Positions 27,294 through 57,296 of a stretch of 64,000 nucleotides of DNA are shown here, piece after piece. Source of the stretch: an uncultured Patescibacteria group bacterium. GTDB lineage: Bacteria > Patescibacteriota > Microgenomatia > UBA1400 > PJMF01. A program made the translations under genes and the position numbers. The number at the start of each line of letters is the position of its first letter. Within the stretch, counting starts at the first letter, position 1. Below the pieces are notes generated by a model. That model was given only the letters and a program-made list of their open reading frames with translations, did not search any database and had not been told where the DNA came from. Location: NCBI GenBank assembly GCA_905478415.1, contig CAJQIG010000005.1:1598-65597 (forward strand), written 5' to 3'.

Positions 27294-27366
27294 TGCCAAG
27301 TTCAGGAATCGAACCTGAATCTCATGTTTTTCAGACATGCGCCGTAACCACCTTGGCTAACTTGGC
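27294..27366 (-). tRNA. tRNA-Phe (anticodon GAA)
   Basis: The reverse complement reads GCCAAGTTAGCCAAGGTGGTTACGGCGCATGTCTGAAAAACATGAGATTCAGGTTCGATTCCTGAACTTGGCA. The anticodon loop is CTGAAAA. Confidence 0.85.
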
Positions 27367-27399
27367 ATCTTTGTATCAAGAAAAGATACTTTTTTTCTG

Positions 27400-27472
27400 T
27401 GGAATGTAAGGGACTCGAACCCCTGACCCTTCGGATGTAAGCCGAATGCTCTACCAACTGAGCTAACATTCC
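27400..27472 (-). tRNA. tRNA-Val (anticodon TAC)
   Basis: The reverse complement reads GGAATGTTAGCTCAGTTGGTAGAGCATTCGGCTTACATCCGAAGGGTCAGGGGTTCGAGTCCCTTACATTCCA. The anticodon loop is CTTACAT. Confidence 0.88.
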
Positions 27473-27479
27473 ATTTTTG

Positions 27480-27560
27480 TGCCCAGGAGAGGAGTTGAAC
27501 CTCCACACCTTGCGGCATACGCACCTCAAGCGTACGTGTATACCATTTCACCACCTGGGC
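27480..27560 (-). tRNA. tRNA-Leu (anticodon GAG), long variable arm
   Basis: The reverse complement reads GCCCAGGTGGTGAAATGGTATACACGTACGCTTGAGGTGCGTATGCCGCAAGGTGTGGAGGTTCAACTCCTCTCCTGGGCA. The anticodon loop is TTGAGGT. Confidence 0.8.
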
Positions 27561-27662
27561 ACTTTTAAAAGAGCATGTAGTGTGTGAAATCACAGACTAC
27601 AAGGCTTGTATTATAAAATACTTTCACCTTTTTCGGAAGTACGGCTTCTGCCGATTTTCAGG

Positions 27663-27750
27663 TGGTGCCAGAGATGGGAGTCGAACCCATACGCCCGTAA
27701 TTGAGCACTAGTTCCTGAAACTAGCCTGTCTACCATTTCAGCACTCTGGC
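27663..27750 (-). tRNA. tRNA-Leu (anticodon CAG), long variable arm, CCA encoded
   Basis: The reverse complement reads GCCAGAGTGCTGAAATGGTAGACAGGCTAGTTTCAGGAACTAGTGCTCAATTACGGGCGTATGGGTTCGACTCCCATCTCTGGCACCA. The anticodon loop is TTCAGGA. Confidence 0.8.
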
Positions 27751-39895: not shown

Positions 39896-40122
39896 TCCTT
39901 TTCAACTCATCTAAATATCTGTTAACTAACTCAGCCATTTTTTTCTGTATCCTAACCTACTAAGTCACCAGCTAAGTCATGAGTAAATTCAAATAAATCA
40001 ATGAAATTCTCGTTACTGCCAATGTTCATTGTAGCATCACTAGAATACGAGTTCATACCTTTAGGGTTAGGTAGCACGACTTAGATGTTAATACTTGTCT
40101 ATGGCTATATTATAGCGCGCTC

Positions 40123-40812
40123 TTAATTTTTTTTACGCAAAATGATTGTTTTTGTTTTATTTGAAGAAGTGTTACTTTTTAGATTATCGGAGTTTATTGA
40201 ACTATCATAGAAATTGCAACTGTCCAAATTACTAGTGTTTAATGTCTCAGCAAATTTGCTATTTGGAAAAAATTCAGTACAAAGCATTGCTAATCCATTT
40301 TTTTTATTAGCAAATGTTTGATAAACTTGATTATTTTCGCAGATGTTTTCAAGAGTATTTTTTATATAAGTATTAAGGTGATACTTCCAAACAACACCCT
40401 GACAAAAGGAATTTCCCAAACCCTCAAACACATCTATTACTAAACGAACTTGCAATTCATTTTGAACATATTGGTCATTTTTTAATGACTCAACTATGAG
40501 GAGATTTTCTTTATCTTGATACAAGTCAGAATAAGCTTCGGCAGTTTGCTCTTGGCTTAATTTAGCTTTTTGAAAGAGTTGGTTTTCTTCTTGAATTTTA
40601 ACTGACTTATCAGCTTTTTCACCAGCTTCTATTGCAATAATATTCGATTCTTTTGAAATGATATTTGATTCTTTAGCAATAGATTGAGATGCAATTAGGG
40701 AAATAATAGACACGATAAGAGCACATATGCTTATCGTTGTTGACTTGTTTTTTTTGAGGTACACAACTAGCTTATTTAAGCTGAGGTTTCCCTGCTTCTT
40801 CGAGTTTGGCAT
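40123..40812 (-). CDS. Hypothetical membrane-anchored, low-complexity (Asn/Ser/Lys-rich) protein
   Basis: A 229-aa ORF with an N-terminal TM. It overlaps the upstream DUF4145 gene by 41 bp, so it appears to be in an operon with the AlbA_2 and DUF4145 genes. Confidence 0.35.
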   Translation of the reverse strand: MPNSKKQGNLSLNKLVVYLKKNKSTTISICALIVSIISLIASQSIAKESNIISKESNIIAIEAGEKADKSVKIQEENQLFQKAKLSQEQTAEAYSDLYQDKENLLIVESLKNDQYVQNELQVRLVIDVFEGLGNSFCQGVVWKYHLNTYIKNTLENICENNQVYQTFANKKNGLAMLCTEFFPNSKFAETLNTSNLDSCNFYDSSINSDNLKSNTSSNKTKTIILRKKN

Positions 40813-41455
40813 TTAATTTTTTTCTTTTGGCTTCTAAAATAGCAGGTTGAACAAAGTAATAATCAAAAAGACTCTCAATCACATCGAGATTCCATTCTGC
40901 TTCACCTTCCTCCACGTCCACAATCCCACCAGTGTTTTTACTTTTGATTGGATGTGCTGCAAAGTTCCCAACCACACGAATAGCATCAATGCCTTGTGAT
41001 ATTGATGATGGTAGGCCTCCATTGTCTAATACTTGTTGAATTTCACTATCAAGGCTTCCTGCTTTAACATTGATTGTTTCAATTTTACCTGTTTCGCTAT
41101 GTAACACCTTGAGCTTTGCTTTTTCTCTAAGTATGTGTTGCAAACATCTTCTGCTTAAAGCTGCACTAGCCTTGGGACTATCCTGAAGGACGTTTGCTGC
41201 TTCTAAATATTCATGCGTGTATTCACTTGGGATTTCTTTTGAAATGGGACTTCTGGCTATGTTTTTAGGATACACTACTATATTGGAACTTCCTCCGCCA
41301 TCTTTTGGTATTTTTCTAAATCTTATTATTGCTTTACCACATTCAGGACAAATCATTGAACTTATATACCAGTGTGCATCAATATCTGAAATAGAGTTGC
41401 GAGATAGTTCAGAAAATGATTCGTGTATAGATGTTTTACAATGTGGACATATCAT
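40772..41455 (-). CDS. Zinc-ribbon + DUF4145 domain protein
   Basis: N-terminal CPHC...(x27)...CPEC is a four-Cys zinc ribbon. C-terminal ...AALSRRCLQHILRE...IDAIRVVGNFAAHPIKSKNTGGIVDVEEGEAEWNLDVIESLFDYYFVQP matches the DUF4145 pattern (R..lE..l......ld.iR..GN.aaH......i..eea...l..le.ll...f). Confidence 0.6.
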   Translation of the reverse strand: MICPHCKTSIHESFSELSRNSISDIDAHWYISSMICPECGKAIIRFRKIPKDGGGSSNIVVYPKNIARSPISKEIPSEYTHEYLEAANVLQDSPKASAALSRRCLQHILREKAKLKVLHSETGKIETINVKAGSLDSEIQQVLDNGGLPSSISQGIDAIRVVGNFAAHPIKSKNTGGIVDVEEGEAEWNLDVIESLFDYYFVQPAILEAKRKKLNAKLEEAGKPQLK

Positions 41456-42326
41456 GTTTATATTATACCAAAGTATTCCGAAAAGGTTTTACCTCGATAT
41501 AACAAAAATATTTTATTGCATAGTAAACAATACCCTATTATTATTCCCCTGCCATAAGTACTGGATAATTAACCTAGAGTAGCTATACATGATTAGTATC
41601 CAGTGGACTTAGCCTAGTCTGACTTTCTAGGTCGAATTAACACTGGGTTGTAGACTGGTGTTATTTATGGGCTCCCGCAGGACAATAATGACCCCCGTGC
41701 AAGTTCACTTATAGTCAAAACCATAAGCTATCAATCACGCTCAGCGCAGTCTCTAAGGTACAACAGACCTCTTCAATATATTTTTAATATTTCCGTCACC
41801 ACTATTTCCAGGGCCTAGTGGCAAGCCCTCGTATCCATTCTCGCGGTTAATTTAAAGACACCCGCTACTGCTAGAATAAAGCTCACCTGTGTCTGTGGTG
41901 GTAATAAAAAAACCACCAAAATAGGTTTCTCATGTTTTTCCTACTTGGTGGTTTCAAATGAAACACACTATATGTTTTTTCTCGCTGTAATAAAAAAATC
42001 CACTTAGACGTAGTTAGTATTGTGTATGCTGTGAGGCTACTAACCACGTCCAAATGGACTTTTCATACACATAACTATACCTACCCTCTATATTGTCCCA
42101 ATAAAGACCGTTTGTCAATAGATAAAAGCTTGATAAATCAGACAAAATAGACAATGATGAGCAAGTAGATAACTATGTAGTATTATAGGGCCTCACACCA
42201 ATGTTTATCTTGCTTTAGGTTTTGAGCTACTGGTAACACCCACACCCCCCTCTGTGAGAAAGGGGCCCTTTAACCCGAGTTGGACTACTAGTAGAAGGTA
42301 TTATAAGGATATTTTTTTTCCTTTTT

Positions 42327-44408
42327 TTACCACTCTTTTGGAGGATTTTCAAAAAGGTCTATTAATTCCAAAGCTCTTTTGCCAATATTTTTACCTTTTG
42401 AGCTCTTATAAATCATAATTCTCTTTTCAATTTCTTTAATTGGGTATAACTCGCCTAATGACTTAAGACCTAATGTTTCGTATGAACCTTTATTTGAAGA
42501 GTGAACCATACCTGTAAAACCATCTAATAATTTAATTAACCCTACATCATCTTGAACTAATTTTCGAATGTAATTCTTGACGCTCTTTTCATTTCCCCAC
42601 TTCAACCACCTGAATAATATTACATCTAGGCGAGTTTCATCTTCGAGTTTCCCATTCTTTACTTTCTTTTTTATTAATTTTAAAACCTCTTTTCTGAATT
42701 TTTCTACAAATTTTTTGTCAACTAATATATCTTTATCATTTTTTTCTATTTGCTCACCAAAGACATCAAGGAGTCTAAGAGAAAAATGAATATTTTGAGT
42801 TTCATTCATAGTGTTAAGAATAAAATCAGCACGTTTATCTTTTGAAACAATATTCTTTAGGGCCTGGTATGTCAAGCGACCCACTTGAGTGTTAAAGTCA
42901 TTTAACCCAAACAATCCACTCTGAGTATCTGAGACATGTCCATCAATATTCCATAAATTCACTATTATTTTTTGGATTTGTTCTTGGGTAATTTTTTCAA
43001 TTCTGTCTAATAACAAATCAATAGTCTTAGTCAGTTTCTTTTCTTTATCTAGTAATAAAAACTTTTCTTTCAAAGAATCTTCATTTGTTTTTGTAGAAAG
43101 AACTGCTTGCACCTCAACTTCTGAAACCTCATCTTCAGGCACACTTAGCTGAAAATAAAAATCGAATTTTTGCTCTGAACAAATTCTCTTTTGTAGACGC
43201 CATTCTCTTTCATAACTTGAACCACTCGATGAATCCATCTTCAACTGAGGAAAAAGTTCTCTTGTTATTCCATCTATTGACGACATAAATTCTTTAGGAA
43301 CGATTTTTTCATTATCTAAAATTTCTTTATAAATTTTTTGACGTTCTTCATCTCTTTCTCTTGAAGGAAAACTAAGTAATGAATCATCTTTATTCAAAAA
43401 AACATACTTGTTACCAGCAATAACATTATAATATGTTGGGACAAAAATTCTTAAAGCTTCTACCGCAATAAAATCCACTGGATTAACATCTTCCTTGTTA
43501 ACTACAGACCAATTTAGTTGAAGAGAACTCAAAAAACGATTAATATCTCTAATGGTAACAAACAAATTACTAAAACCATTTCTAAATATGGCTTCCCAAT
43601 GCTTCTGTTCTTCACTGTCAAAAACATATGTACCGTAAATAGAATCTAGTGTTTTATCTAATCCAGAAAACAAAACACCTCTTAGGTTCTGTTTATCTGG
43701 AACTGGGATTGTAAATGATACCTGAATAATTTTTTTAAGATAGTCATGTCCTTCAATTCCACGTTCTGTTATCCTACTCGCTACTTTTTCTCTATCATAT
43801 GCAAGTAAAAAAACCGTGTTTGGGAAGTTTGCTGTCATTTTAACCATCTTTAATATCAGTAATGTCTCCTGTTTATCTAGGCGGTCAATATCATCAATTA
43901 CTACCAAAATTTTCTTTCTCCGCCTTTTTAAAAGAACATCAATCGATTCTCTTATTTCAGTTAAAGTTTGAACACCACCATATTTTTTAATTTTTCCTGG
44001 TGAAAACTCAAAAAACCAAAGAAATTTTACAGAAGGATTAAACTCAAACATGGACTGTTTAAGTAGTTTTGAAGAATAATTTGTAAGTTTCTGCTTCAAT
44101 TCGTCTTTTTCACCATTTTTATCTAATGCAGCAGTAAATGAGTCAAAAAAATCGGAAATTAGTTGATTTTGACTAGAAAAATTCCAAGGATTGAACTTAA
44201 TAATAACGACATCTTTTCTTTTAAAATTTTCAAGAATTAAATTTATAAATGACGTTTTTCCTGCACCCCATATACCTTCAATACCAATAACATAGCTTTC
44301 TTTGCCTTTATAATTCTTAATTAGCTGTGCTACCTTTTCAGCTAATGGCGCCCTTTTTAAAACGTCTTCTTTACCTTTTTTTTGTATTGGTGAATCAGTT
44401 GATATCAT
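42327..44408 (-). CDS. KAP-family P-loop NTPase
   Basis: N-terminal Walker A GIEGIWGAGKTSFINLIL, followed by a long helical region with VVIDDIDRLDKQE (Walker B-like DD). This is typical KAP NTPase architecture and length (693 aa). Confidence 0.7.
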   Translation of the reverse strand: MISTDSPIQKKGKEDVLKRAPLAEKVAQLIKNYKGKESYVIGIEGIWGAGKTSFINLILENFKRKDVVIIKFNPWNFSSQNQLISDFFDSFTAALDKNGEKDELKQKLTNYSSKLLKQSMFEFNPSVKFLWFFEFSPGKIKKYGGVQTLTEIRESIDVLLKRRRKKILVVIDDIDRLDKQETLLILKMVKMTANFPNTVFLLAYDREKVASRITERGIEGHDYLKKIIQVSFTIPVPDKQNLRGVLFSGLDKTLDSIYGTYVFDSEEQKHWEAIFRNGFSNLFVTIRDINRFLSSLQLNWSVVNKEDVNPVDFIAVEALRIFVPTYYNVIAGNKYVFLNKDDSLLSFPSRERDEERQKIYKEILDNEKIVPKEFMSSIDGITRELFPQLKMDSSSGSSYEREWRLQKRICSEQKFDFYFQLSVPEDEVSEVEVQAVLSTKTNEDSLKEKFLLLDKEKKLTKTIDLLLDRIEKITQEQIQKIIVNLWNIDGHVSDTQSGLFGLNDFNTQVGRLTYQALKNIVSKDKRADFILNTMNETQNIHFSLRLLDVFGEQIEKNDKDILVDKKFVEKFRKEVLKLIKKKVKNGKLEDETRLDVILFRWLKWGNEKSVKNYIRKLVQDDVGLIKLLDGFTGMVHSSNKGSYETLGLKSLGELYPIKEIEKRIMIYKSSKGKNIGKRALELIDLFENPPKEW

Positions 44409-44485
44409 ATTGATATACTATCACAAAACTTTTTCAAATTTTTACTTTCTTAGTATTAACATGACCTGTTGTATAATAAAGAAAA

Positions 44486-44606
44486 CTCGCGGCTATTATT
44501 ACACCTTTTTTAGGTGAGTTTTTACTTGTCGTTAATGATAGGCAGCCCTATCTGTCAAACGACAAGTCGTAGCCGCGAGGAAGTCTAGGATGGGCTGCCT
44601 TTTTTT
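44486..44606 (+). promoter_or_regulatory. Candidate cis-regulatory leader RNA. It has nested perfect inverted repeats (10-bp, 10-bp, 6-bp and 4-bp stems) plus an alternative 8-bp pairing and a U7 tract. A putative -10 (TATAAT 44472..44477) lies upstream. The downstream gene starts at 44629.
   Basis: P1 is CTCGCGGCTA (44486..95) pairing with TAGCCGCGAG (44570..79). P2 is CACC-ttttttta-GGTG. P3 is ACTTGTCGTT (44524..33) pairing with AACGACAAGT (44558..67). The inner hairpin is GATAGG-cagc-CCTATC. GGCAGCCC (44541..48) is complementary to GGGCTGCC (44592..99), which is followed directly by TTTTTTT. Confidence 0.45.
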
Positions 44607-44628
44607 GAAAAGCCCAAGGAAGGAACTC

Positions 44629-45303
44629 ATGATTCAACTCGGGCTATTTTTTTTAGGAATTTTTGTATACACATTTGGTCTTAATCTTTTTGCACAATAC
44701 CGCAGAGGACAAATGCAATTTGGTGGCGTACTTGGAATTTTTGCCGCCTGTTGGGCTTTGTTCACTAACATTTATTTGTTCCTGGTAATGATTCCTTTAT
44801 TCTTCATTTTCCGCAAACTTGCTAGTTATTTAGTCTTCCTCTTTTTCAAGAAACAATATCCCAAAGCAGTGAACCTTGATTGGAAAACATTTCAGTTACG
44901 AGAAACATACAGAGAAAATAAAAAACCTGAAAACTTACTAGACGGCAAATGTCTTGAGGGCATGGTGAGTAAAATGGAAGCAAAAAATAAAGAGCTGGAA
45001 GAATTTTGTGACAACGCATACAAGGTCACAGGTATTAAAGAAACTTTGCAAAAACATGATGAAAAGAAGGAGAGTCTGAAAAGTATCTATAGTCAGGTTC
45101 TAACTAGTTATGGAGGAATTTTTACCGCGAAAGCAATAATTACTGCTCCTTACTACCTCAACAAATATCTTGAAACAATCAATAAACCTGGTCATTTCTT
45201 AAAACCAAATACTGAAATCAAAATGTTTGGTGATATTGACCCTAAAGAGAAACAGTTTCTGGGAAGTCTCAATGAGTCATTTGGATTCCCTGACTTAATA
45301 TAA
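44629..45303 (+). CDS. Hypothetical membrane protein. The start at 44629 (RBS AAGGAAGG 44616..44623) is preferred over the ORF-track start at 44590.
   Basis: Two N-terminal TM helices, then a soluble Lys/Glu-rich domain. There is a good Shine-Dalgarno sequence 5 bp upstream of the Met at 44629. Confidence 0.4.
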   Translation: MIQLGLFFLGIFVYTFGLNLFAQYRRGQMQFGGVLGIFAACWALFTNIYLFLVMIPLFFIFRKLASYLVFLFFKKQYPKAVNLDWKTFQLRETYRENKKPENLLDGKCLEGMVSKMEAKNKELEEFCDNAYKVTGIKETLQKHDEKKESLKSIYSQVLTSYGGIFTAKAIITAPYYLNKYLETINKPGHFLKPNTEIKMFGDIDPKEKQFLGSLNESFGFPDLI

Positions 45304-45320
45304 CAACCAAGAAAGGAAGC

Positions 45321-45647
45321 ATGAGCAAGAATTACTTAGCGCTTAGCACTGTTGCAACAGTGTCATTAGTAGGAATCCTAGCTATACTTTTCTACACAAC
45401 CTTCGTGGTTAGACCTAGAGAACAAGCACTACAAAAGCATATTGCAGTTATGCAGGCTTGCAATCAGCAACGTCTATACATGACTTGGGAGCTAAAAAAC
45501 TCACTAAATGATGTGAGCGAGTTTGCTCCTCAAGAAGAAAAAGACCTTATAAACCAGACATTGGATAATGCTACAGGATATTTTCATAGCTCTGATTTTT
45601 TTGATACATGTTTCGAAAAAACTATAGAGGAATGGAATTTAAATTAA
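45321..45647 (+). CDS. Small hypothetical membrane-anchored protein
   Basis: A 108-aa ORF with one N-terminal TM. Confidence 0.35.
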   Translation: MSKNYLALSTVATVSLVGILAILFYTTFVVRPREQALQKHIAVMQACNQQRLYMTWELKNSLNDVSEFAPQEEKDLINQTLDNATGYFHSSDFFDTCFEKTIEEWNLN

Positions 45648-46006
45648 TTTGTTTCAATTGGCTTACTTTTTAGTATGTAGGCTTCATGAACTTTAAAACC
45701 ATTAACTTTCTCATTTTGAAGGTGGAATCCTTCTTTGTATTTTAAAAATAGTTCAGTTATGTGGTCTTGGACAGGGAATATTCCAATTCTTGCAATAGAT
45801 TTATTTTCTTCTTCACTTAGATTTTCTCTCATTTTAGAGGCGACAAGGTTAAAGATTTCTGTTCTATTTTCGTCAGTAATCCAGTCAGCAGAAACTAATA
45901 CTGACCACTTATCTATGAAATCATCCATTCTCATTATGGCAAAAAGAGTAAAGTTGCCTTTTTGAGCTTCAATTTCGTTAGTAATTAATTTAAATTTTTC
46001 TACCAT
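45644..46006 (-). CDS. Hypothetical protein. Its start overlaps the stop of the upstream HEPN gene.
   Basis: A 120-aa ORF. It overlaps the 46000..46458 gene by 7 bp (operon). No minimal-nucleotidyltransferase motif is seen. Confidence 0.35.
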   Translation of the reverse strand: MVEKFKLITNEIEAQKGNFTLFAIMRMDDFIDKWSVLVSADWITDENRTEIFNLVASKMRENLSEEENKSIARIGIFPVQDHITELFLKYKEGFHLQNEKVNGFKVHEAYILKSKPIETN

Positions 46007-46458
46007 CTTTTCTTTAAGTATACAAGAATCCCATTTGAATTATTAGTAAGAGCATTGTAAACAGATTTAACTTTTGATTCAGTCCAGTAATTTGGTTGAT
46101 ATCGCATATTTACCCATTGCTGGTTTCCTGGCAGAACATAATCTTGCGTGGCAGCAGACCATGATGCAAAATAGGGATTATTTCCTACATTTGTGAACTT
46201 GTTCGATAATCCGGATAATATTTGAAGTTTGTCTAGTTCATGAGTTCTGAAAATGGTTCGTATGTTGTTATCAACGCTGCTATCATCAGCTGGGTAACTT
46301 ACCAGGTCAAGTTTCTTACAAACGCAAGCCTTAAGGGCACATTCCAACACAAAGCCCATTGTGTAGCCTGCATAATCATAATCCCCTGCTTCAATTAAAA
46401 TTTTTGCAGCCTTTATTCTCGCTCGTGTTATCTTTTTTAGTTCGGTGCGTGTTGCCAT
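46000..46458 (-). CDS. HEPN-domain protein (putative RNase/abortive-infection-type)
   Basis: The N-terminal helix pair ARIKAAKILIEAGDYDYAGYTMGFVLECALKACVCKKL is typical of HEPN. A candidate R-x(4-6)-H motif is present in RTIFRTHELDKL. Confidence 0.45.
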   Translation of the reverse strand: MATRTELKKITRARIKAAKILIEAGDYDYAGYTMGFVLECALKACVCKKLDLVSYPADDSSVDNNIRTIFRTHELDKLQILSGLSNKFTNVGNNPYFASWSAATQDYVLPGNQQWVNMRYQPNYWTESKVKSVYNALTNNSNGILVYLKKRW

Positions 46459-46479
46459 TACAATATTACGATTTTATCA

Positions 46480-47559
46480 TTATTTTGATATGTTTTGATG
46501 TTCAAATGCTTGTTTGTCACTAACCATAATTTCAATGATTAATTTCCCTTTTTTTCTACATTCTTTTATTGTAAAACGCTTATCATTTTTTATCCCTGAT
46601 TCATCTAGTCTTCGTTGCTCCAGGTCAAGGCGAGTTTCTGAACTTTCATCTTTCAACCACAAAGGGTCGTACATACGCTGTACGTCACTTTTGCCCTTTG
46701 TTGAAAATTGTCGGTAAATGTTTAGAGTAACATTGATACCTTTGTGACCCATTACTTCTTTGACGTCTATCGGTTTTGCCCCAGCATCAATCATTGCTGT
46801 AGTTTTAATATGCCTAAAACGGTGCAAGGTAATTCTTTTCTTGATACCATGTTCTTTTAAAGATTCTCTCCAGGATTTTGCAACACCTTCTGGGTTTGCA
46901 GGGAAAACCTTTTCCCAGTTTGTCCTATTTTTGAGAGTATCGATATATTTGGGAGGTATTATCATTATTTCCCTCCTTCTCCCCTTTCTTAGAACCTCAA
47001 AATAAGGTTCAGGCACATCGAAGTGAAGGTCATCACCTGTGACATGTGTAAGCTCCTCTTTTCTTGCACCGGTTAGAAGTAGCATGATGAGATACAGTCT
47101 TCGCTCATTCTTTCTTTCTCTGACTAGTTTATTATCCGTTGGTTTTATTTCATTACTTTTATTCGCTAGGCTAAGCGCTAATTCAGGTGAAATCATGTCC
47201 TTTTTCCTATTATCAACAATGACGAAAGGGACCTGCCTGGAAAAGTTATGGCTAATGTGTTGGTACAAAAAGAGCCAGTTAATGAAAGAGCGAATCATTC
47301 GTATTTCAGTGTTCAGAGATGAAGGCTTCCATGGTTTTTTTAGATTATCATTCTTGTGACAACCATACCTTCTCAGCTTTTCGAGGTAAGCTATGATGTT
47401 TTTGGTTATCAAGGATTGATTCCCAAATTCTCGGGTAAATCTGTGAAAGAATTCACGTTTCTTTTTTTGTGTCTTGGGAGACTCATTTTTTCGCAGAGGA
47501 ACATCGATGCAGTACTCCTTTAGGAGTGTGTGGAGTTTTTTCCCTTGGATTGCTACCAT
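46480..47559 (-). CDS. Tyrosine recombinase / phage-type integrase
   Basis: C-terminal catalytic motifs: ...LLLTGARKEEL (Arg), ...ITLHRFRHIKTTAMIDAGAKPIDVKEVMGHKGINVTLNIYRQ (H-x-x-R ... H ... Y). It is adjacent to tRNA-Lys. Confidence 0.85.
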   Translation of the reverse strand: MVAIQGKKLHTLLKEYCIDVPLRKNESPKTQKKKREFFHRFTREFGNQSLITKNIIAYLEKLRRYGCHKNDNLKKPWKPSSLNTEIRMIRSFINWLFLYQHISHNFSRQVPFVIVDNRKKDMISPELALSLANKSNEIKPTDNKLVRERKNERRLYLIMLLLTGARKEELTHVTGDDLHFDVPEPYFEVLRKGRRREIMIIPPKYIDTLKNRTNWEKVFPANPEGVAKSWRESLKEHGIKKRITLHRFRHIKTTAMIDAGAKPIDVKEVMGHKGINVTLNIYRQFSTKGKSDVQRMYDPLWLKDESSETRLDLEQRRLDESGIKNDKRFTIKECRKKGKLIIEIMVSDKQAFEHQNISK

Positions 47560-47710
47560 AACAGAATTTACCTAGATGTGTATCTAAGTACTTTCTGTTG
47601 TTTCTTTTCCAAGGCGGGACGCTATGGGTAATGGACCCCGATATTGCGTTATCCCCATAAAGGGAGGCGATGCCAAACAACTTAATGCTAATCTGGACTA
47701 GCTCATGAGG

Positions 47711-47883
47711 CTAGCCATTGAGGGTGGGGAAAGAATCGAACTTTCCTCTCAACCATTCCACTCACAGGGAAGCATTCTGCCGCTGAACTAAAGGTGATAA
47801 TACTTTGCTCACCTTCTGGGTATCGAACCCAGGTCTCTTCCGTGGTGGGTCAACTGGGACTCGAACCCAGGACACCCTGCTTA
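47711..47883. repeat. attR: the right copy of the 173-bp direct repeat. It overlaps the 3' portion of the intact tRNA-Lys.
   Basis: See attL. Confidence 0.8.
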
Positions 47884-47919
47884 AGAGGCAGGTGCTCTAA
47901 CCGACTGAGCTATTGACCC
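47843..47919 (-). tRNA. tRNA-Lys (anticodon CTT), CCA encoded. It is the integration target of the island.
   Basis: The reverse complement reads GGGTCAATAGCTCAGTCGGTTAGAGCACCTGCCTCTTAAGCAGGGTGTCCTGGGTTCGAGTCCCAGTTGACCCACCA. The anticodon loop is CTCTTAA. Confidence 0.88.
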
Positions 47920-52546: not shown

Positions 52547-53080
52547 ATGAAGCATATTTTTAAAGACACAAACTTAATTAAACCAGCGGTGTTTGGTGCT
52601 ACTGATGGCATTATTACCACGTTTGCAGTCGTAGCCAGTGTGGCGGGAGCGAATCTTTCTCCAAGTATTGTGCTGATTATGGGCATTGCTAATATGTTGG
52701 GTGATGGGGTTAGTATGGGACTTGGTGATTACTTAGGTGAGCGATCAGAGCGTTTAGTTGTTTCTAAAGGAGAATGTGAAGACGCATGTAAAGGTGTTTG
52801 GAAAACAGGCGTAGTTACGTTTACTGCTTTTGTGATTGCGGGTGTATTTCCTCTTCTCCCCTATTTTCTTGAAGCTTTTGGAGTTCCTATTGCTCATGAA
52901 TCTCAGTTTATGTACTCGATTATTTCTACAATGATAACCTTGTTTGTAGTGGGGTCACTAAGAACCATCATTGTTCCAATTGCTTGGTGGAAAAATGGTT
53001 TAGAGATGCTACTGGTTGGATCAGCCGCCGCAAGTGTAGCGTACCTTTTTGGGTATTTAGTTGATGCTTGGGTACTCTAA
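52547..53080 (+). CDS. VIT1/CCC1-family (vacuolar iron transporter-like) membrane protein
   Basis: PAVFGATDGIITTFAVVASVAGANLS...GIANMLGDGVSMGLGDYLG matches VIT-family TM1-2 motifs. Confidence 0.65.
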   Translation: MKHIFKDTNLIKPAVFGATDGIITTFAVVASVAGANLSPSIVLIMGIANMLGDGVSMGLGDYLGERSERLVVSKGECEDACKGVWKTGVVTFTAFVIAGVFPLLPYFLEAFGVPIAHESQFMYSIISTMITLFVVGSLRTIIVPIAWWKNGLEMLLVGSAAASVAYLFGYLVDAWVL

Positions 53081-54624
53081 GCAGATTTCGAATCTAGTTC
53101 TCTATTGATCGTTCCAATTGTTTGGGGTCCATTGTAAATCATGCCCGTAATGAGTTGGAGTAAGTCGGCTCCAGCATCCAGTTTGGTCTGTGCAGTCTTT
53201 GTATCAAAAATTCCTCCACAACCGACGATAGTAAAGCGATTTTTAAAATTCTTTTTGGTGAGTTTAATTAAGTTATTTGATCTTTCGAAGGTGGGTTGTC
53301 CGCTAAGATTGCCTTTTCTTTGTTTCCAAATTTTCCGATCTGCATCTGTTACTGCTGGATTATTTTTATCTTTGGTTAAGTTGCCAAAAATAACTCCTTG
53401 GACAGTATGTGCGGCACTTACTCGTAAGAGAGCTAAGGTTTCTTTTTCGGATTGGTCTATTGGCATTTTTATATAGAGCGGTTTTGAAAGTTCCAGTGTG
53501 TCGATAACGCTCAGCAATTGCTCGAGTCGATTTGGAGTGGTAAATGGTTCGCCACCAAATGTATTTGGGCAGCTAATATTGAGTTCGTAGTAACTGTGAT
53601 GTACTTGTGATTTTTCAAAGAGTACAAAGCTTTTGATAACATCCATAACTTGCTCGTGATCAGAATCGAAGTGAGTATTGGTCGAAGCGATACTGATACC
53701 CACAGGGACAGAAAAATGAATGCCACTAAGTTTGGCAATAATTGTTTTTGCACCAAGTGATTTTAGTCCTTTGTTGACAATCAGTGCTTTTGAGTCTGGT
53801 AGTCTTCCAAGTCTGGGTTTAGGGTTCCCTTGGTATGGCTGGGCCGTCACTGTTCCAATTGTATGAAAGCCAAAGCCAACTGGTCCAAGGATGCGGGCCA
53901 TTTCTCCATTGTAATCAAAGCCAGCACAGAGGCCAATTTTATTTGGGAATGAAATTCCATTAAAGGTAACAGCAGTTGTTGGTGAGTTGTACGAAAATAT
54001 CCAGTTGGTGAGTGATCGGGTAAGACTATTTTGTCCCAAGATATACCCAGCTTTTGTAAAGGCAGTATGTATGGTCTCTGGATCAAATAAGAAAAGAACT
54101 GGTTTTAAAAGTTGGGTGTACAAGAAGTTAAAAATAGTGTGAGAAATAGTTTTTAAAAGAAGGTGTGGTTTTTTTTGAGTCATCGAGAAATATTTCCAAG
54201 AAACAAAGAATAGTGTCATGCTCGTCGCCGCTGAGATGAGGCAGTAGAGACACCAGCCTTTAATAACAAACGCCATGATAAACACTAAATACAAACTAAA
54301 AAGTCCCCCCAAGGTCGCCAATGTTGTAAAAAGTTGTGGCAAGGTTGCAAATGATTGTAGCTTTTTTGGTACAAAACCTTTGATATCTAATTCGAGGATA
54401 GTAGCAACTCCGAGAATAAAAAGAGTTAAGTAGAAAAGTAGTCCCAGTGCGTAGAGTGGTACTGGACCAATGTGGGCATACGGGCTTGAGAGGACTTCGC
54501 CACAACTAAAACCACTACCGCAAGGTGGGACTATGCCCTGCAATTCTTCATAGGCAAGGTAGCTTGCGTCAGCAATTCCAATAAGTGGTAGTGCGACGTG
54601 CAAAAGTAGGAGAAAAGTTTTCAT
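53077..54624 (-). CDS. pyrD: Fusion protein: an N-terminal VKOR (vitamin-K-epoxide-reductase-like, CxxC) membrane domain plus a C-terminal class-2 (quinone-dependent) dihydroorotate dehydrogenase
   Basis: N-terminus: ...SYLAYEELQGIVPPCGSGFSCGEVLSSPYAHIGPVPLYALGLLFY...GWCLYCLISA (VKOR loop Cys pair plus CXXC in a TM helix). C-terminus: ...FPNKIGLCAGFDYNGEMARILGPVGFGFHTIGTVTAQPYQGNPKPRLGRLPDSKALIVNKGLKSLG..., ...ELNISCPNTFGG... and ...IVGCGGIFDTKTAQTKLDAGADLLQLITGMIYNGPQ. These parallel E. coli PyrD ([53 protein letters not shown]...GASLVQIYSGFIFKGP). Confidence 0.7.
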   Translation of the reverse strand: MKTFLLLLHVALPLIGIADASYLAYEELQGIVPPCGSGFSCGEVLSSPYAHIGPVPLYALGLLFYLTLFILGVATILELDIKGFVPKKLQSFATLPQLFTTLATLGGLFSLYLVFIMAFVIKGWCLYCLISAATSMTLFFVSWKYFSMTQKKPHLLLKTISHTIFNFLYTQLLKPVLFLFDPETIHTAFTKAGYILGQNSLTRSLTNWIFSYNSPTTAVTFNGISFPNKIGLCAGFDYNGEMARILGPVGFGFHTIGTVTAQPYQGNPKPRLGRLPDSKALIVNKGLKSLGAKTIIAKLSGIHFSVPVGISIASTNTHFDSDHEQVMDVIKSFVLFEKSQVHHSYYELNISCPNTFGGEPFTTPNRLEQLLSVIDTLELSKPLYIKMPIDQSEKETLALLRVSAAHTVQGVIFGNLTKDKNNPAVTDADRKIWKQRKGNLSGQPTFERSNNLIKLTKKNFKNRFTIVGCGGIFDTKTAQTKLDAGADLLQLITGMIYNGPQTIGTINRELDSKSA

Positions 54625-54628: not shown

Positions 54629-55393
54629 TTATTCTACACGCTCTTTCGGGGCTTTCAAGGTTGTTACATAGTAGGTATTTACTTCATTCTCTCGGCCGTC
54701 GGCACGATAAGTTGTTACAAGTTGTAGAGGAGTTCCTTTTAGCAAGTCTGCGACTTCTTCAGTTGTGTAGGCATGACAGTAGCGGATGGCTTGCTCTCCT
54801 CTTCTCCAGTCCAAAAAGTAATCGTTATTTTCAAGTTGGTTTGTGTCAATTTTGAGCTTTGTTGGAGCAATGAGCCGATCAGTGAATCGTTCAAACTCAA
54901 TAAAATTCCAGGTAGTAAATACGAGTTGACCTCCAGGGTTGAGCCGTGAAGCAAGTTTCTTTAGAAATATTTTTCGAAGTTGTGTACTTGGAATATGATG
55001 CATAACTCCAAAAACAGTGATCAGGTCAAAGGTTTGTGAATCAAAAGAAAGTAGTTTATTCGTTAACAAAGTTTCTAGGATATTTTCTTGGTTGAGTGTT
55101 ACTTTCTCTTTTTGAGGAGAGAGTGTTTTGATGGCAGCCTCAAGAAGAGTGGGATTTGAGTCAATTCCAGTATAGTGAGTCAGGTAATCAAAGTTTTCGA
55201 AGGCAAAAGCTCCAAATCGTCCATTTCCGCAGCCAAGGTCAAGGATCGTCTTGGTTGTTGAAGGTTCAATGTGTGTAAGCAGTGTTTCCCATCCGGGCCA
55301 GATATGGTTGCGAGTAGTATCAAATTCCTTGGCAGTTGTAGTGTAAAAGTCCGCATTAAGTTGGTTGAGTGCAGAAATTGTGTGAATATCCAT
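54629..55393 (-). CDS. Class I SAM-dependent methyltransferase, Trm9-like (candidate tRNA wobble-uridine methyltransferase)
   Basis: SAM motif I ILDLGCGNGRF. ...DLITVFGVMHHIPSTQLRKIFLKKLASRLNPGGQLVFTTWNF resembles Trm9/ALKBH8-type MTases (aViHHlst..rR...i.el.R.l..GG..li..Wa). It is divergent from the Elp3 homolog. Confidence 0.6.
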   Translation of the reverse strand: MDIHTISALNQLNADFYTTTAKEFDTTRNHIWPGWETLLTHIEPSTTKTILDLGCGNGRFGAFAFENFDYLTHYTGIDSNPTLLEAAIKTLSPQKEKVTLNQENILETLLTNKLLSFDSQTFDLITVFGVMHHIPSTQLRKIFLKKLASRLNPGGQLVFTTWNFIEFERFTDRLIAPTKLKIDTNQLENNDYFLDWRRGEQAIRYCHAYTTEEVADLLKGTPLQLVTTYRADGRENEVNTYYVTTLKAPKERVE

Positions 55394-55430
55394 AGGTACT
55401 GCTATAATACCAGAGAAAATAGATTTATTT

Positions 55431-57296
55431 ATGTACGCATTTAACCCTCATGACTACTTAGAACAATTAGTTCCCTTGTTGCTCGAGCTAGAAAAAGTTG
55501 AGCAAATTTCTGCCAAAGGTTTAGCTCAGCTAGTAAAGCGACACGCCAAACCGAATGGAAATGTTTTTTCTAAAGATGAAATTGTGCGTGGGTATCGAGA
55601 GTTGGCCGGCACTCATGGAATTGCTCCATTTGTCCAATCCTTTTTAAAAAAAGTAACGATGAAGCCAACGAGAACTCAATCGGGAGTATCTCCGGTTACG
55701 GTTTTGACAAAGCCGTTCCCCTGTCCTGGTCAGTGTATTTTTTGTCCGAATGATGTTCGGATGCCGAAGAGTTACTTGGCGGATGAGCCCGGCGCGCAGC
55801 GTGCCGAGCGTAATTGGTTTGATCCTTACTTGCAAACCTATAACCGTTTGCAGGCGTTACATAATATTGGTCACTTAGTTGATAAAACTGAAGTTATTGT
55901 ATTGGGTGGCACTTGGTCATTTTATCCAGAGAGCTATCAAATTTGGTTTATCAAAGAGTGTTTTAGAGCCTTAAATGATTTTGGGACACATGATGGTCGC
56001 GATAAGATTTTTCAGTGGTATGAAGATATGGCTGAAGAGTTAAAAAAGAAAGATATTCTTCGTACAAATAGCCCAAAGCAGAATCAAAAATCACTGGCCG
56101 AGTTACAGATAGATGGTGAAGCCATTACCAAGACATATAATCGAATCATTTCAGAACAGTACACAGCCCCAGAAAAGCTGGGTGGCTTTGATTCATATCA
56201 AGTTGCATCTTGGGAAGAATTGGAAGCTGAGCAGAAAAAAAATGAAACGGCTGCTGTGAGGTGTGTGGGATTAGTAATTGAAACTCGACCTGACAATATT
56301 TCAGAAGCTGAAGTTGTCAGAGTGCGCCGTCTGGGTTGTACTAAAACTCAAATTGGAGTTCAGTCGTTGCAAGATAGTGTGCTTAACCTAAATAAGCGTG
56401 GTCACGATGTTGCCGCCACTAGGAAAGCGTTTAAGTTACTTAGACAAGCCGGTTTTAAAATTCATGCTCACTGGATGGCAAATTTATATGGTTCATCGGT
56501 CGAGGCAGATAAAATTGATTATGAACAATTATTTTCTGATCCAGATTTTTGTCCTGACGAGCTCAAAATTTATCCGTGTAGCTTAATTGGCAGTGCTGAG
56601 TTAATGCAGGTGTATAAAGCTGGTAAATGGAAGCCATATACACAGACTGAGTTAGCCGAAGTGCTCTCTCACGTATTTAAAGTTACACCTCAGTATGCTC
56701 GTTTAACTCGGGTTATTCGTGACATTCCTTCACAAGATATTGTTGAAGGAAATATGTTAACAAACTTCAGACAAATTGTTGAACAGTCTTTAGAAGAACA
56801 AAAAATTATTCCGCAAGACATTCGCTCCAGAGAAATTAAAGATGGAATCTTTGATCCAAAAGATATTGAGTTTAAAGTTTCAGAGTATCAAACCCAAGTT
56901 AGTACAGAGTATTTTTTGCAGTATCTGGTTCCTGCTGAAAAAGTTGCCTATCCACATCGAACCAGTAAGAAAATTCCTGGTACTGAAAAAATTCTAGGAT
57001 TTTTGCGTCTCTCAATTCCTAAAGAACAGTCATTTATTTCAGAGTTGAAAGAGAGCACGATGATCCGTGAAATTCATGTGTATGGCACCGTAGTGGCGTT
57101 GGGGAAAGATGGAACTTCAAAGGCACAACACTTAGGACTTGGAAAAAAATTAATAGTACGAGCAGAAAAAATATCTCAAGATGCTGGGTATAAAAAAATG
57201 GCTGTCATTTCTGGAATTGGAACAAAGGAATACTATCGTAAACGAGGGTTTACTGATGGTGAGTTGTATCAATTTAAAGCTGTTTCTGCAAAATAA
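55431..57296 (+). CDS. elp3: Elp3-family radical-SAM + GNAT protein (Elongator catalytic subunit homolog; tRNA wobble-uridine carboxymethylation)
   Basis: Radical SAM Cys cluster PFPCPGQCIFCPND. ...GTWSFYPESYQ..., ...VIETRPDNISEAEVVRVRRLGCTKTQIGVQS... and the C-terminal GNAT ...HLGLGKKLIVRAEKISQDAGYKKMAVISGIGTKEYYRKRGF form the Elp3 architecture. Confidence 0.8.
   Translation: MYAFNPHDYLEQLVPLLLELEKVEQISAKGLAQLVKRHAKPNGNVFSKDEIVRGYRELAGTHGIAPFVQSFLKKVTMKPTRTQSGVSPVTVLTKPFPCPGQCIFCPNDVRMPKSYLADEPGAQRAERNWFDPYLQTYNRLQALHNIGHLVDKTEVIVLGGTWSFYPESYQIWFIKECFRALNDFGTHDGRDKIFQWYEDMAEELKKKDILRTNSPKQNQKSLAELQIDGEAITKTYNRIISEQYTAPEKLGGFDSYQVASWEELEAEQKKNETAAVRCVGLVIETRPDNISEAEVVRVRRLGCTKTQIGVQSLQDSVLNLNKRGHDVAATRKAFKLLRQAGFKIHAHWMANLYGSSVEADKIDYEQLFSDPDFCPDELKIYPCSLIGSAELMQVYKAGKWKPYTQTELAEVLSHVFKVTPQYARLTRVIRDIPSQDIVEGNMLTNFRQIVEQSLEEQKIIPQDIRSREIKDGIFDPKDIEFKVSEYQTQVSTEYFLQYLVPAEKVAYPHRTSKKIPGTEKILGFLRLSIPKEQSFISELKESTMIREIHVYGTVVALGKDGTSKAQHLGLGKKLIVRAEKISQDAGYKKMAVISGIGTKEYYRKRGFTDGELYQFKAVSAK

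What the first reader, a model, noticed from the sequence alone, without database searches (positions are those of the whole stretch)
53077..54624. VKOR domain fused to a class-2 dihydroorotate dehydrogenase
The DHODH part is complete (FMN/orotate motifs and a catalytic Ser in SCPNT). Its usual N-terminal quinone-binding helices are replaced by a VKOR-like 4-5 TM domain with the paired loop cysteines and a TM CXXC. Both modules normally reduce quinones. The fusion suggests a novel electron route, for example dihydroorotate oxidation coupled to disulfide chemistry or a protein-bound quinone, in a lineage that may lack a conventional respiratory quinone pool.
Basis: partly seen in the sequence, partly recalled or inferred. 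Interest (0 to 1): 0.6.

Follow-up and report, generated by a model that had tools for sequence, protein, structure and literature searches.

The report
VKOR fused to Cys-type DHODH
A membrane enzyme of disulfide-bond formation (VKOR) is fused to the quinone-type dihydroorotate dehydrogenase of pyrimidine synthesis across many ultra-small CPR bacteria, which published surveys say generally lack a respiratory chain and quinone synthesis, so where the electrons go is an open, testable question.

Summary
The ORF is real: 53077-54624, minus strand, 515 aa. It holds an intact four-helix VKOR (residues 1-150) joined to a complete class-2-type DHODH (about 151-515). The native N-terminal quinone-tunnel helices are kept, not replaced. 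The catalytic-base position holds Cys352, not Ser.

All four VKOR cysteines, Ser47, Cys352 and the tunnel residues His186 and Arg274 are invariant across homologues. The junction length is fixed and the whole-protein AlphaFold model is confident.

The fusion is widespread in Microgenomates-type CPR bacteria. In relatives the two genes are separate but stay clustered, often with L-LDH, flavodoxin and a Crp-type regulator.

No paper in the searched library describes this architecture. Published surveys report that CPR genomes generally lack respiratory complexes, terminal oxidases and quinone synthesis; I could not check this genome. Fungal class-II DHODs with the same Cys substitution work anaerobically.

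Best reading (0.45): both halves are canonical quinone reducers sharing a scavenged quinone. Most novel reading (0.25): dihydroorotate electrons leave through VKOR running in reverse. Verdict: a new variant of known kinds, with the mechanism unresolved.

The parts
53077..54624 (-). Whole fusion gene, 515 aa: VKOR plus class-2-type DHODH
   Evidence: ORF; Pfam VKOR and DHO_dh; AlphaFold pLDDT 93.5, pTM 0.89; all 120 best homologues have the same architecture
54175..54624 (-). VKOR domain, residues 1-150. Four TM helices (2-28, 57-76, 95-121, 126-149) plus a short loop helix (41-45). Predicted N-terminus in the cytoplasm, cysteines outside
   Evidence: Pfam 86.7 bits; hydropathy; AlphaFold; Foldseek top 14 hits are all VKORs; positive-inside K+R counts 4.5 and 3.0 against 1.3 and 0.25
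54502..54522 (-). Loop cysteine pair C35-GSGFS-C41, the shuttle cysteines. The conserved Ser47 follows at 54484-54486
   Evidence: Aligns with Synechococcus VKOR C50/C56 and the Ser-Ser pair; invariant in 117 of 117
54241..54255 (-). W124-C125-L-Y-C128: the active-site CXXC at the outer end of TM4
   Evidence: Aligns with C130-x-x-C133 of Synechococcus VKOR and C132-x-x-C135 of human VKOR; cysteines invariant
53980..54174 (-). Junction plus the retained class-2 DHODH N-terminal subdomain, residues 151-215. Holds the amphipathic helix alpha1 (155-177) and alpha2 (182-198) of the quinone tunnel, including the invariant His186 (54067-54069)
   Evidence: Aligns from position 2 of E. coli PyrD and the NCBIfam class-2 models; helices in the model; His186 invariant; CXXC-to-His distance is 58 +/- 1 residues in 121 of 133 sequences
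53080..53979 (-). DHODH FMN-binding barrel, residues 216-515. Includes Arg274 (53803-53805), the tunnel Arg equivalent to E. coli R102 and human R136, and Lys386
   Evidence: Pfam DHO_dh; TIGR01036 at 204 bits against a cut-off of 200; Foldseek to class-2 DHODHs, TM 0.87-0.90; invariant columns
53560..53580 (-). Active-site motif N349-I-S-C352-P-N-T, with Cys at the catalytic-base position where class-2 enzymes have Ser
   Evidence: Aligned to E. coli NIS-S175-PNT; invariant in 117 of 117; the same motif occurs in unfused CPR DHODHs
54629..55393 (-). Context only: a generic class-I SAM methyltransferase 4 nt upstream on the same strand. It may be co-transcribed. It is probably tied to the divergent Elp3 gene, not to the fusion
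   Evidence: Pfam and NCBIfam hits to UbiG, UbiE and CmoB are all far below their cut-offs; found upstream in 22 of 81 loci

Best explanation
This is one polypeptide carrying two intact quinone-linked redox enzymes on opposite faces of the membrane.

Cytoplasmic face: a complete class-2-type DHODH oxidises dihydroorotate on FMN, with Cys352 as the base. It passes the electrons to a lipid-phase quinone bound in the retained alpha1/alpha2 tunnel (His186, Arg274).

Outer face: a canonical short four-helix VKOR takes electrons from an exported thioredoxin-fold (DsbA-like) protein. They travel through C35/C41 to C125-x-x-C128 and on to quinone.

The VKOR bundle is joined to helix alpha1 by a fixed-length linker. 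It therefore also acts as the integral-membrane anchor of the DHODH, and it holds both quinone sites in one small patch of membrane.

These organisms apparently make no quinone and have no respiratory chain. I therefore infer that the quinone is scavenged from a host or the surroundings, and that the quinol is re-oxidised outside any respiratory chain, by oxygen, by another chemical oxidant, or by diffusing away. Fusion and operon linkage would then co-express and co-localise what may be the cell's main users of a scarce cofactor.

Shown here: the domain identities, the catalytic residues and their conservation, the topology, the fixed junction, the lineage distribution and the gene linkage.

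Inferred: quinone as the acceptor of both halves, the origin of the quinone, and the sink.
For: - Both domains pass their family tests, and every catalytic or quinone-site residue I examined is invariant.
- Four TM helices and the positive-inside counts put the cysteines outside and the DHODH inside.
- The VKOR signature residues, including Asp19 in TM1, are shared with a VKOR that sits in a canonical DsbA-VKOR gene pair.
- A DsbA/Thioredoxin_4 gene lies directly upstream of the adjacent VKOR and DHODH genes in L051.
- An intact VKOR-only gene occupies the same synteny in L091, so the VKOR half can stand alone.
- Nineteen of the 83 DHODH loci scored have no VKOR within 10 kb, and those DHODHs start directly at alpha1, so the DHODH half can stand alone too.
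- All characterised VKOR and DsbB enzymes run from thiol to quinone (established knowledge; PMC13486548).
Against: - Two electron donors with no known acceptor is an incomplete circuit. Published CPR surveys report no terminal oxidases, no complexes I-IV and no quinone synthesis.
- In E. coli, extra dehydrogenase input into the quinone pool makes quinone limiting for DsbB, and reduced DsbA accumulates (PMC7598926). Fusing two quinone reducers should therefore create competition, not benefit, unless the sink is strong.
- A fixed-length junction and linkage that recurs through many rearrangements suggest tighter coupling than cofactor sharing alone.
- The invariant Cys base matches fungal class-II DHODs that work without respiration (PMC8520639). 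That hints the acceptor may not be an ordinary quinone pool.
Confidence: 0.45

Rival explanations
1. Source-and-sink pair with VKOR running in reverse. Dihydroorotate (about -258 mV) reduces FMN. FMN reduces a captive or scavenged quinone at the inner face. The quinol then reduces the VKOR CXXC at the outer face. The electrons leave through C35/C41 to an external thioredoxin-fold protein or other disulfides. The protein would then be a dihydroorotate:disulfide oxidoreductase that gives pyrimidine synthesis an electron sink in a cell with no respiratory chain.
For: - If the genomes lack other quinone enzymes, as surveys report, this is the only closed circuit that runs thermodynamically downhill. 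The bound FMN potential of -242 to -330 mV comes from PMC8520639; the other potentials are established knowledge.
- The junction has a fixed length and the whole-protein model has pTM 0.89.
- Fused, adjacent and operonic layouts recur, and the closest standalone VKORs with usable context are DHODH-linked in five of six cases.
- The Cys base is a mark of respiration-independent class-II DHODs.
- In E. coli, a reduced quinone pool leaves DsbA reduced.
Against: - No VKOR or DsbB is known to work in reverse.
- Menaquinol (about -74 mV) to a DsbA-type disulfide (about -120 mV or lower) is uphill at standard state.
- The partners seen next to VKOR are DsbA/Thioredoxin_4 types, which are normally oxidases.
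- A VKOR-only gene and solitary DHODHs both exist.
- The VKOR residues are the same as in a DsbA-linked VKOR.
Confidence: 0.25
2. The Cys-type DHODH does not use a quinone pool in vivo. It passes electrons to a soluble acceptor such as flavodoxin, free flavin or fumarate. VKOR acts as an independent disulfide-forming enzyme and as a membrane anchor. The linkage reflects shared redox regulation only.
For: - A flavodoxin gene sits immediately beside DHODH or VKOR in operons of unfused relatives (L028, L084, L086), together with L-LDH and a Crp-type regulator.
- A fungal Cys-type class-II DHOD uses free FMN or FAD, and another appears fumarate-linked (PMC8520639).
- Crp-type regulators lie next to both fused and unfused genes.
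Against: - The quinone-tunnel helices, His186 and Arg274 are invariant, which is hard to explain if the tunnel is unused.
- No flavodoxin, LDH or Crp homologue is present in the 64-kb window.
- The flavodoxin linkage is limited to one group of relatives.
Confidence: 0.15
3. Reverse of the previous circuit. Thiol oxidation by VKOR feeds a quinone, and the DHODH half re-oxidises the quinol by reducing orotate or a fumarate-like acid. This would give disulfide-bond formation a terminal acceptor.
For: - It would solve the missing oxidant for VKOR.
- Cys-base class-1A DHODHs reduce fumarate at the same site (established knowledge).
Against: - Quinol at about -74 mV to enzyme-bound FMN at -242 to -330 mV is steeply uphill.
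- The orotate/dihydroorotate couple (about -258 mV) is a poorer oxidant than the disulfides being formed.
Confidence: 0.05
4. Artefact: a mis-assembly, a sequencing frameshift or a mis-called ORF joins two neighbouring genes.
For: - Adjacent split versions exist (L027, L051, L090), so a single base error could mimic a fusion.
Against: - The same continuous ORF occurs in more than 115 distinct protein clusters and 57 of the 83 loci scored, drawn from many studies and assemblers.
- The junction length is conserved and the junction is modelled with confidence.
Confidence: 0.01

Closest known systems
Bacterial VKOR (Synechococcus VKOR-thioredoxin fusion, PDB 3KP9 and 4NV2/5/6; M. tuberculosis VKOR), the functional analogue of DsbB
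   Same: Four-helix core, the C-x5-C loop pair, a conserved Ser, CXXC at the start of TM4, and cysteines on the outer face. Fold match TM 0.72-0.73.
   Different: There is no fifth TM helix and no thioredoxin-like domain. The C-terminus stays in the cytoplasm and continues into a DHODH. Asp19 in TM1 is typical of this short VKOR group and is Leu in the Synechococcus enzyme.
Class-2 quinone-dependent DHODH (E. coli PyrD 1F76 and 7T5K; M. tuberculosis 8OFW; human DHODH)
   Same: Full barrel plus the alpha1/alpha2 quinone-tunnel subdomain, the tunnel His and Arg, and the FMN and orotate residues. TIGR01036 scores above its cut-off. Fold match TM 0.87-0.90.
   Different: The catalytic base is Cys, not Ser. 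The protein is integral to the membrane through a fused enzyme domain, where bacterial enzymes are peripheral and the mitochondrial enzyme has a single TM helix.
Anaerobically active fungal class-II DHODs with a Cys base (Ura9 of Schizosaccharomyces japonicus, Dekkera bruxellensis and Anaeromyces robustus; PMC8520639)
   Same: A class-II scaffold with Cys replacing the catalytic Ser, in organisms that make pyrimidines without respiration. Two of the three keep their quinone-site residues.
   Different: They are eukaryotic and have no VKOR partner. The Anaeromyces enzyme has lost its N-terminal domain and uses free flavins.
Giant-virus VKOR redox modules (PMC13486548)
   Same: VKOR is genetically linked to, or near enzymes fused with, another membrane enzyme, and a shared vitamin K cofactor is proposed to connect them.
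   Different: [quoted passage not shown] Here the partner normally produces quinol.
Quinone-mediated electron export in fermentative Gram-positive bacteria (Listeria flavin-based extracellular electron transfer; from my own knowledge, not tested here)
   Same: This is an analogy for the novel reading only: a dedicated cytoplasmic dehydrogenase feeds a special quinone that carries electrons to the outside for redox balance.
   Different: The proteins are unrelated (Ndh2, EetA/B, PplA) and the acceptors are flavins or metals, not disulfides.

Membership tests
VKOR family (Pfam PF07884) | Sequence match above the curated threshold | tested here: met
   86.7 bits against a cut-off of 27.5, covering profile positions 3-134 of 134
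VKOR family (Pfam PF07884) | Four-helix transmembrane bundle | tested here: met
   Four hydrophobic segments. AlphaFold helices at 2-28, 57-76, 95-121 and 126-149. Foldseek top 14 PDB hits are all VKORs, TM up to 0.74
VKOR family (Pfam PF07884) | Four conserved cysteines (loop pair plus CXXC in TM4) and a conserved Ser/Thr | tested here: met
   C35, C41, S47, C125 and C128 align with the catalytic residues of Synechococcus VKOR and are invariant in 117 of 117 homologues
VKOR family (Pfam PF07884) | A thioredoxin-fold redox partner, fused or encoded separately | tested here: inconclusive
   There is no fused thioredoxin domain. A DsbA/Thioredoxin_4 gene is adjacent only in L051, and in the distant VKOR locus L088. 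None is present in the window. Whole genomes could not be searched
VKOR family (Pfam PF07884) | Quinone or vitamin K reductase activity coupled to thiol oxidation | not testable with these tools
   Needs biochemistry or dsbB complementation
Class-2 (quinone-dependent) DHODH, PyrD | Sequence match to class-2 equivalog models, and not to class-1 models | tested here: met
   TIGR01036 scores 204 bits against a cut-off of 200, which is marginal. NF003652 scores 259.8 against 267, just below. Class-1 models score only 39-52 bits against cut-offs of 269-330
Class-2 (quinone-dependent) DHODH, PyrD | N-terminal two-helix subdomain forming the quinone tunnel, with its conserved His and Arg | tested here: met
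   Aligns from residue 2 of E. coli PyrD. Helices at 155-177 and 182-198. TM 0.90 to full-length M. tuberculosis DHODH. His186 and Arg274 are invariant
Class-2 (quinone-dependent) DHODH, PyrD | Serine as the catalytic base | tested here: not met
   Cys352 aligns with E. coli Ser175 and is invariant in 117 of 117. The protein therefore has a class-2 scaffold with a class-1-type base, and I file it as a variant, not a canonical member
Class-2 (quinone-dependent) DHODH, PyrD | Respiratory quinone as the physiological electron acceptor | not testable with these tools
   Literature reports that CPR genomes generally lack quinone synthesis and respiratory complexes. The acceptor is unknown
Class-1 DHODH (1A fumarate-dependent, 1B NAD-dependent) | Cysteine catalytic base | tested here: met
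   Cys352
Class-1 DHODH (1A fumarate-dependent, 1B NAD-dependent) | Class-1 sequence type, soluble, without the N-terminal tunnel subdomain | tested here: not met
   Class-1 models score far below their cut-offs, and the N-terminal subdomain is present. No PyrK-like gene is adjacent
Respiration-independent class-II DHOD variants (fungal Ura9 type, PMC8520639) | A class-II scaffold with Cys replacing the catalytic Ser | tested here: met
Respiration-independent class-II DHOD variants (fungal Ura9 type, PMC8520639) | Supports pyrimidine synthesis without respiration or oxygen | not testable with these tools
   Needs anaerobic complementation. The lineage is reported to be fermentative

The most novel reading that the evidence does not exclude
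The fusion is a self-contained transmembrane electron-export device. Dihydroorotate oxidised in the cytoplasm reduces a captive, scavenged quinone. The VKOR half then works in reverse as a quinol:disulfide oxidoreductase and discharges the electrons to external disulfides. This would give a fermentative cell with no respiratory chain the sink it needs for de novo pyrimidine synthesis. It would be the first reversed VKOR/DsbB-type enzyme and a new class of DHODH electron acceptor.
Probability: 0.25. Interest if true: 0.85.

Novelty: new variant of a known kind. Interest (0 to 1): 0.62.

Why it matters
- **A gap in CPR metabolic models.** CPR (Patescibacteria) bacteria make up a large share of bacterial diversity and are modelled as fermenters without respiratory chains or quinones. 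Yet here many of them conserve, fuse and co-regulate two enzymes whose known relatives both need a membrane quinone and a downstream oxidant.
- **Each possible answer is informative.** These cells may scavenge and use foreign quinones, which would be a new dependency on hosts or neighbours. They may have an unrecognised quinol sink. Or the pair may form a new circuit in which pyrimidine synthesis and extracytoplasmic thiol chemistry are directly coupled.
- **A link to fungal enzymes.** The invariant Cys base ties these enzymes to the rare fungal class-II DHODs that work anaerobically and whose acceptor is also unresolved.
- **Testability.** The protein is a single gene and could be tested by pyrD and dsbB complementation in E. 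coli. The question is therefore directly testable even though no member of these particular lineages has been reported in culture, to my knowledge.

Tried and rejected
- **Interdomain geometry.** Model coordinates are not exposed, so I could not measure the distance between the DHODH tunnel mouth and the VKOR quinone pocket. Only pTM, pLDDT and secondary structure were available.
- **AFDB fold search.** The library was not available.
- **Pathway genes.** I probed about 1.3 Mb of held CPR DNA plus the window with phmmer, using E. coli PyrB, PyrC, PyrE, PyrF, MenA and CydA sequences written from memory. There were no hits. This is uninformative, because only local neighbourhoods are held.
- **PyrE candidate.** A 'Pribosyltran' gene near DHODH in L084 looked like PyrE but is ComF-like.
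- **Quinone methyltransferase idea.** The upstream methyltransferase hits UbiG and UbiE only far below their cut-offs (41 against 103 bits, 30 against 216). It tracks with the divergent Elp3 gene, so I rejected it as a quinone methyltransferase.
- **Asp19 as a marker.** Asp19 in TM1 looked like a mark of DHODH-linked VKORs, but the DsbA-linked and solitary VKORs share it. Only M117 and W124 differ, and I cannot interpret those.
- **Partners in the window.** No DsbA, flavodoxin, LDH or Crp homologue is present in the window. No further DsbA-like genes occur in the held loci.
- **Literature.** Nine full-text searches found no description of a VKOR-DHODH fusion. The 2015 VKOR phylogeny paper mentions only C-terminal thioredoxin-like domains.
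- **Promoter.** The promoter-like site just upstream of the start codon is not above shuffle expectation.
- **Tree.** The neighbour-joining tree has short, unsupported internal branches. I use it only to say that the architectures are interspersed.
Full report
**1. The observation**

The window carries a 515-aa ORF on the minus strand, 53077-54624, running from ATG to TAG. Pfam finds VKOR (PF07884) at residues 9-143 with 86.7 bits against a cut-off of 27.5. It finds DHO_dh (PF01180) at residues 218-512 with 150 bits.

The VKOR part aligns with the solved Synechococcus VKOR so that C35/C41 match the loop pair C50/C56. S46-S47 match its Ser-Ser pair, and C125-x-x-C128 match C130-x-x-C133. An AlphaFold model of residues 1-150 alone has pLDDT 94. 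Its 14 best PDB matches are all VKORs, with TM up to 0.74, followed by a sharp drop in significance.

**2. Three corrections**

First, the native class-2 N-terminal helices are present, not replaced. The NCBIfam class-2 models and E. coli PyrD (1f76, residues 2-330) align from query residue about 169. The full-length model (pLDDT 93.5, pTM 0.89) shows an amphipathic helix at 155-177 and helices at 182-198 and 200-209 before the barrel. Foldseek superposes the DHODH part on full-length M. tuberculosis DHODH at TM 0.90 and 1.9 Å. The tunnel residues His186 and Arg274, equivalent to E. coli His19 and Arg102, are invariant.

Solitary CPR DHODHs start directly at helix alpha1 with no other anchor. 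VKOR is therefore an addition.

Second, the catalytic base is Cys, not Ser. NIS-C352-PNT aligns with E. coli NIS-S175-PNT, and Cys352 is invariant in 117 of 117 homologues.

Third, there are four TM helices. Positive charges concentrate in loop 2-3 and after TM4, with mean K+R of 4.5 and 3.0, against 1.3 and 0.25 in the other two loops. This predicts an N-terminus in the cytoplasm, both cysteine pairs outside, and the DHODH inside. With four helices, the cysteines and the FMN domain lie on opposite faces whichever way the protein inserts. Any electronic link between them must therefore go through a membrane-soluble carrier.

**3. Conservation and distribution**

All 120 best database hits, at 51-100% identity, have both domains. 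The named ones are Pacebacteria, Woesebacteria or unclassified Patescibacteria.

A scan of one genome per species returned 80 loci. Those with usable titles are all CPR: Pacebacteria, Woesebacteria, Roizmanbacteria, Gottesmanbacteria, Microgenomates, Levybacteria, Magasanikbacteria and Nomurabacteria.

I built HMMs of each half and scored all 83 loci held at that point, which included three near-identical loci from one Pacebacteria relative. Fifty-seven are fused in one ORF. Seven have separate VKOR and DHODH genes adjacent or within 2 kb. Nineteen have DHODH without VKOR within 10 kb.

All of these carry the NISCP motif, but the scan pattern selected for it, so that point is biased.

The distance from the CXXC to the alpha2 His is 58 +/- 1 residues in 121 of 133 scorable sequences, across proteins that diverge to about 40% identity. 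Together with pTM 0.89, this argues for a fixed interdomain geometry and against a flexible tether.

A rough neighbour-joining tree puts the CPR enzymes on one long branch away from E. coli PyrD. Fused, linked and solitary forms are interspersed in it. Its internal branches are short and unsupported.

**4. Gene context**

In the window and in its Pacebacteria relatives the neighbours are a generic methyltransferase 4 nt upstream, a divergent Elp3 gene and a convergent VIT1 transporter gene. None is a pyrimidine, quinone or Dsb gene. Nor is anything else I annotated in the 64 kb.

The unfused relatives are more telling:
- L028 has an overlapping operon of VKOR, L-LDH, flavodoxin and DHODH beside a divergent Crp-type regulator.
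- L084 has DHODH, then Crp on the opposite strand, then VKOR, L-LDH and flavodoxin. The L-LDH scores above the TIGR01771 cut-off.
- L086 has LDH, then Crp on the opposite strand, then VKOR, flavodoxin and DHODH.
- L089 and L090 are further variants of the same grouping.
- L078 has DHODH followed by VKOR.
- L051 has a DsbA/Thioredoxin_4 gene followed by VKOR and DHODH.

Six close standalone VKORs had usable context, and five are DHODH-linked. The sixth (L091) is an intact VKOR-only gene in exactly the window's synteny, with no DHODH remnant.

More distant short VKORs sit in a canonical DsbA-VKOR pair or alone. They share the fused domain's signature residues, including Asp19 in TM1.

An exhaustive search with the VKOR domain found 171 representatives at E <= 1e-10. 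Most are standalone proteins of 140-190 aa, with a few further fusion clusters such as P0278.

**5. Literature**

Nine full-text searches found no description of this architecture. The 2015 VKOR phylogeny paper records only thioredoxin-like fusion partners.

Published CPR surveys report the following:
- No electron-transport complexes I-IV or terminal oxidases, a fermentative lifestyle and widespread LDH (PMC8672522, PMC7507113).
- No quinones (PMC5113843).
- No quinone biosynthesis genes in the soil CPR genomes analysed (PMC8407418).

Reports on pyrimidine synthesis in CPR are mixed.

PMC8520639 shows that Cys at the catalytic-base position is rare in class-II DHODs. In fungi it marks enzymes that support anaerobic, respiration-independent pyrimidine synthesis. 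It also gives the bound FMN potential as -242 to -330 mV.

PMC7598926 shows that in E. coli, heavy dehydrogenase input makes quinone limiting for DsbB and leaves DsbA reduced.

**6. Mechanism**

The anatomy establishes two intact quinone-type active sites on opposite faces of the membrane in one rigid protein. My best-supported reading (0.45) is conservative. Both halves do what their families do, which is to reduce a membrane quinone. VKOR doubles as the membrane anchor. The quinone is scavenged. Fusion or operon linkage co-expresses two users of a scarce cofactor.

Several facts favour this reading: the canonical VKOR signature, the DsbA-type neighbours, and the existence of VKOR-only and DHODH-only genomes.

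Its weakness is that it has two donors and no known sink, and donors compete for oxidised quinone.

The main rival (0.25) closes the circuit. Dihydroorotate, the lower-potential donor, reduces the quinone. The quinol then reduces the VKOR cysteines, and the electrons leave to external disulfides. If no other quinone enzymes exist, this is the only closed loop that runs downhill. It would explain the rigid junction and the persistent linkage. It requires a reversed VKOR, which has no precedent, and a step that is mildly uphill at standard state.

A third option (0.15) is that the Cys-type DHODH uses flavodoxin, free flavin or fumarate, and that the linkage reflects shared redox regulation. The invariant tunnel residues argue against this.

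Reverse flow into DHODH (0.05) is thermodynamically poor. An assembly artefact is excluded by the breadth of independent assemblies.

**7. Classification and novelty**

The N-terminal half is a member of the VKOR family by every sequence and fold test I could run. Its partner and its activity are untested.

The C-terminal half has a class-2 scaffold. It scores marginally above the TIGR01036 cut-off and has a full tunnel subdomain, but it fails the class-2 defining feature of a Ser base. I therefore file it as a Cys-type variant of class-2 DHODH, analogous to the fungal anaerobic Ura9 enzymes, and not as a canonical PyrD.

Public databases already hold these sequences under automatic names such as 'dihydroorotate dehydrogenase (quinone)' or 'hypothetical protein'. 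I found no description, analysis or experiment on the fusion.

My rating is a new variant of known kinds, with interest 0.62. The architecture is real, widespread and paradoxical for its hosts, and it is directly testable. Its mechanism is unresolved, and the ordinary reading remains the most likely.

Noticed in passing
window 38582-47919: A low-GC stretch (0.32-0.35 against about 0.40-0.43 elsewhere). It carries a Schlafen/AlbA_2 protein (38582-39895), a DUF4145 protein (40772-41455), a KAP-family P-loop NTPase (42327-44408) and a tyrosine integrase (46480-47559) next to tRNA-Lys (47843-47919). It looks like an integrated mobile or defence island at a tRNA gene.
   Followed up: partly
window 54629-57296: A bacterial Elp3 gene (55431-57296; TIGR01211 at 463 bits against a cut-off of 350) lies divergent from a generic class-I methyltransferase (54629-55393). 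The pair is conserved in about 18-22 of 81 related loci. It may be a tRNA wobble-uridine modification pair. Elp3 is uncommon in bacteria.
   Followed up: partly
L028 7452-11113; L084 6110-9861; L086 6321-9979; L089; L090: In unfused relatives, VKOR, L-lactate dehydrogenase, flavodoxin and DHODH form tight operons, often with overlapping stop and start codons, beside a divergent Crp-type regulator. This looks like a small redox island whose logic is unknown.
   Followed up: partly
L091 7037-7558: An intact VKOR-only gene (173 aa, all catalytic residues kept) sits in the same Elp3 / methyltransferase / VKOR / VIT1 synteny as the window, with no trace of the DHODH part. This is either a natural domain loss or a relocation of DHODH elsewhere in that genome.
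   Followed up: yes
L086 1-2483; L089 1687-5440: A copper-type P-type ATPase, a DsbD_2-Cupredoxin_1 fusion protein and a small HMA protein lie 3-6 kb from the VKOR/DHODH cluster in two loci. DsbD_2 belongs to the family of transmembrane thiol-disulfide electron carriers.
   Followed up: no
window 9945-11276: An F420-0:gamma-glutamyl ligase-like gene (9945-10709) lies next to a cob(I)alamin adenosyltransferase gene (10713-11276). These are unexpected cofactor-related genes in a reduced CPR genome.
   Followed up: no
window 12120-18183: A glycolysis cluster on the minus strand: cofactor-independent phosphoglycerate mutase, enolase, a PEP-utilising (PPDK-like) enzyme and a bacterial-type phosphoglucose isomerase. 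This fits a fermentative lifestyle.
   Followed up: no
window 26954-27750: A cluster of five tRNA genes on the minus strand: Gly-GCC, Phe-GAA, Val-TAC, Leu-GAG and Leu-CAG.
   Followed up: no
loci L004-L083 (record titles): Many species-representative MAG records titled 'uncultured Pseudomonadales' or 'uncultured Gammaproteobacteria' carry CPR-type VKOR-DHODH genes and CPR-type synteny. These titles look like placeholder or wrong taxonomy.
   Followed up: no
window 54631-54658 (minus strand): The best sigma-70-like match in the region (TTGAAA, 16-nt spacer, TAGAAT; 10 of 12 matches) lies inside the 3' end of the methyltransferase gene, just upstream of the fusion gene's start. The number of such sites is not above shuffle expectation.
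   Followed up: yes
VKOR domain residues 117 and 124 (window 54253-54276): DHODH-linked VKORs have Met117 and Trp124. Most other short VKORs have Gln at 117 and Ile, Phe or Tyr at 124. These are the only subfamily-specific positions I found, and I cannot interpret them.
   Followed up: partly
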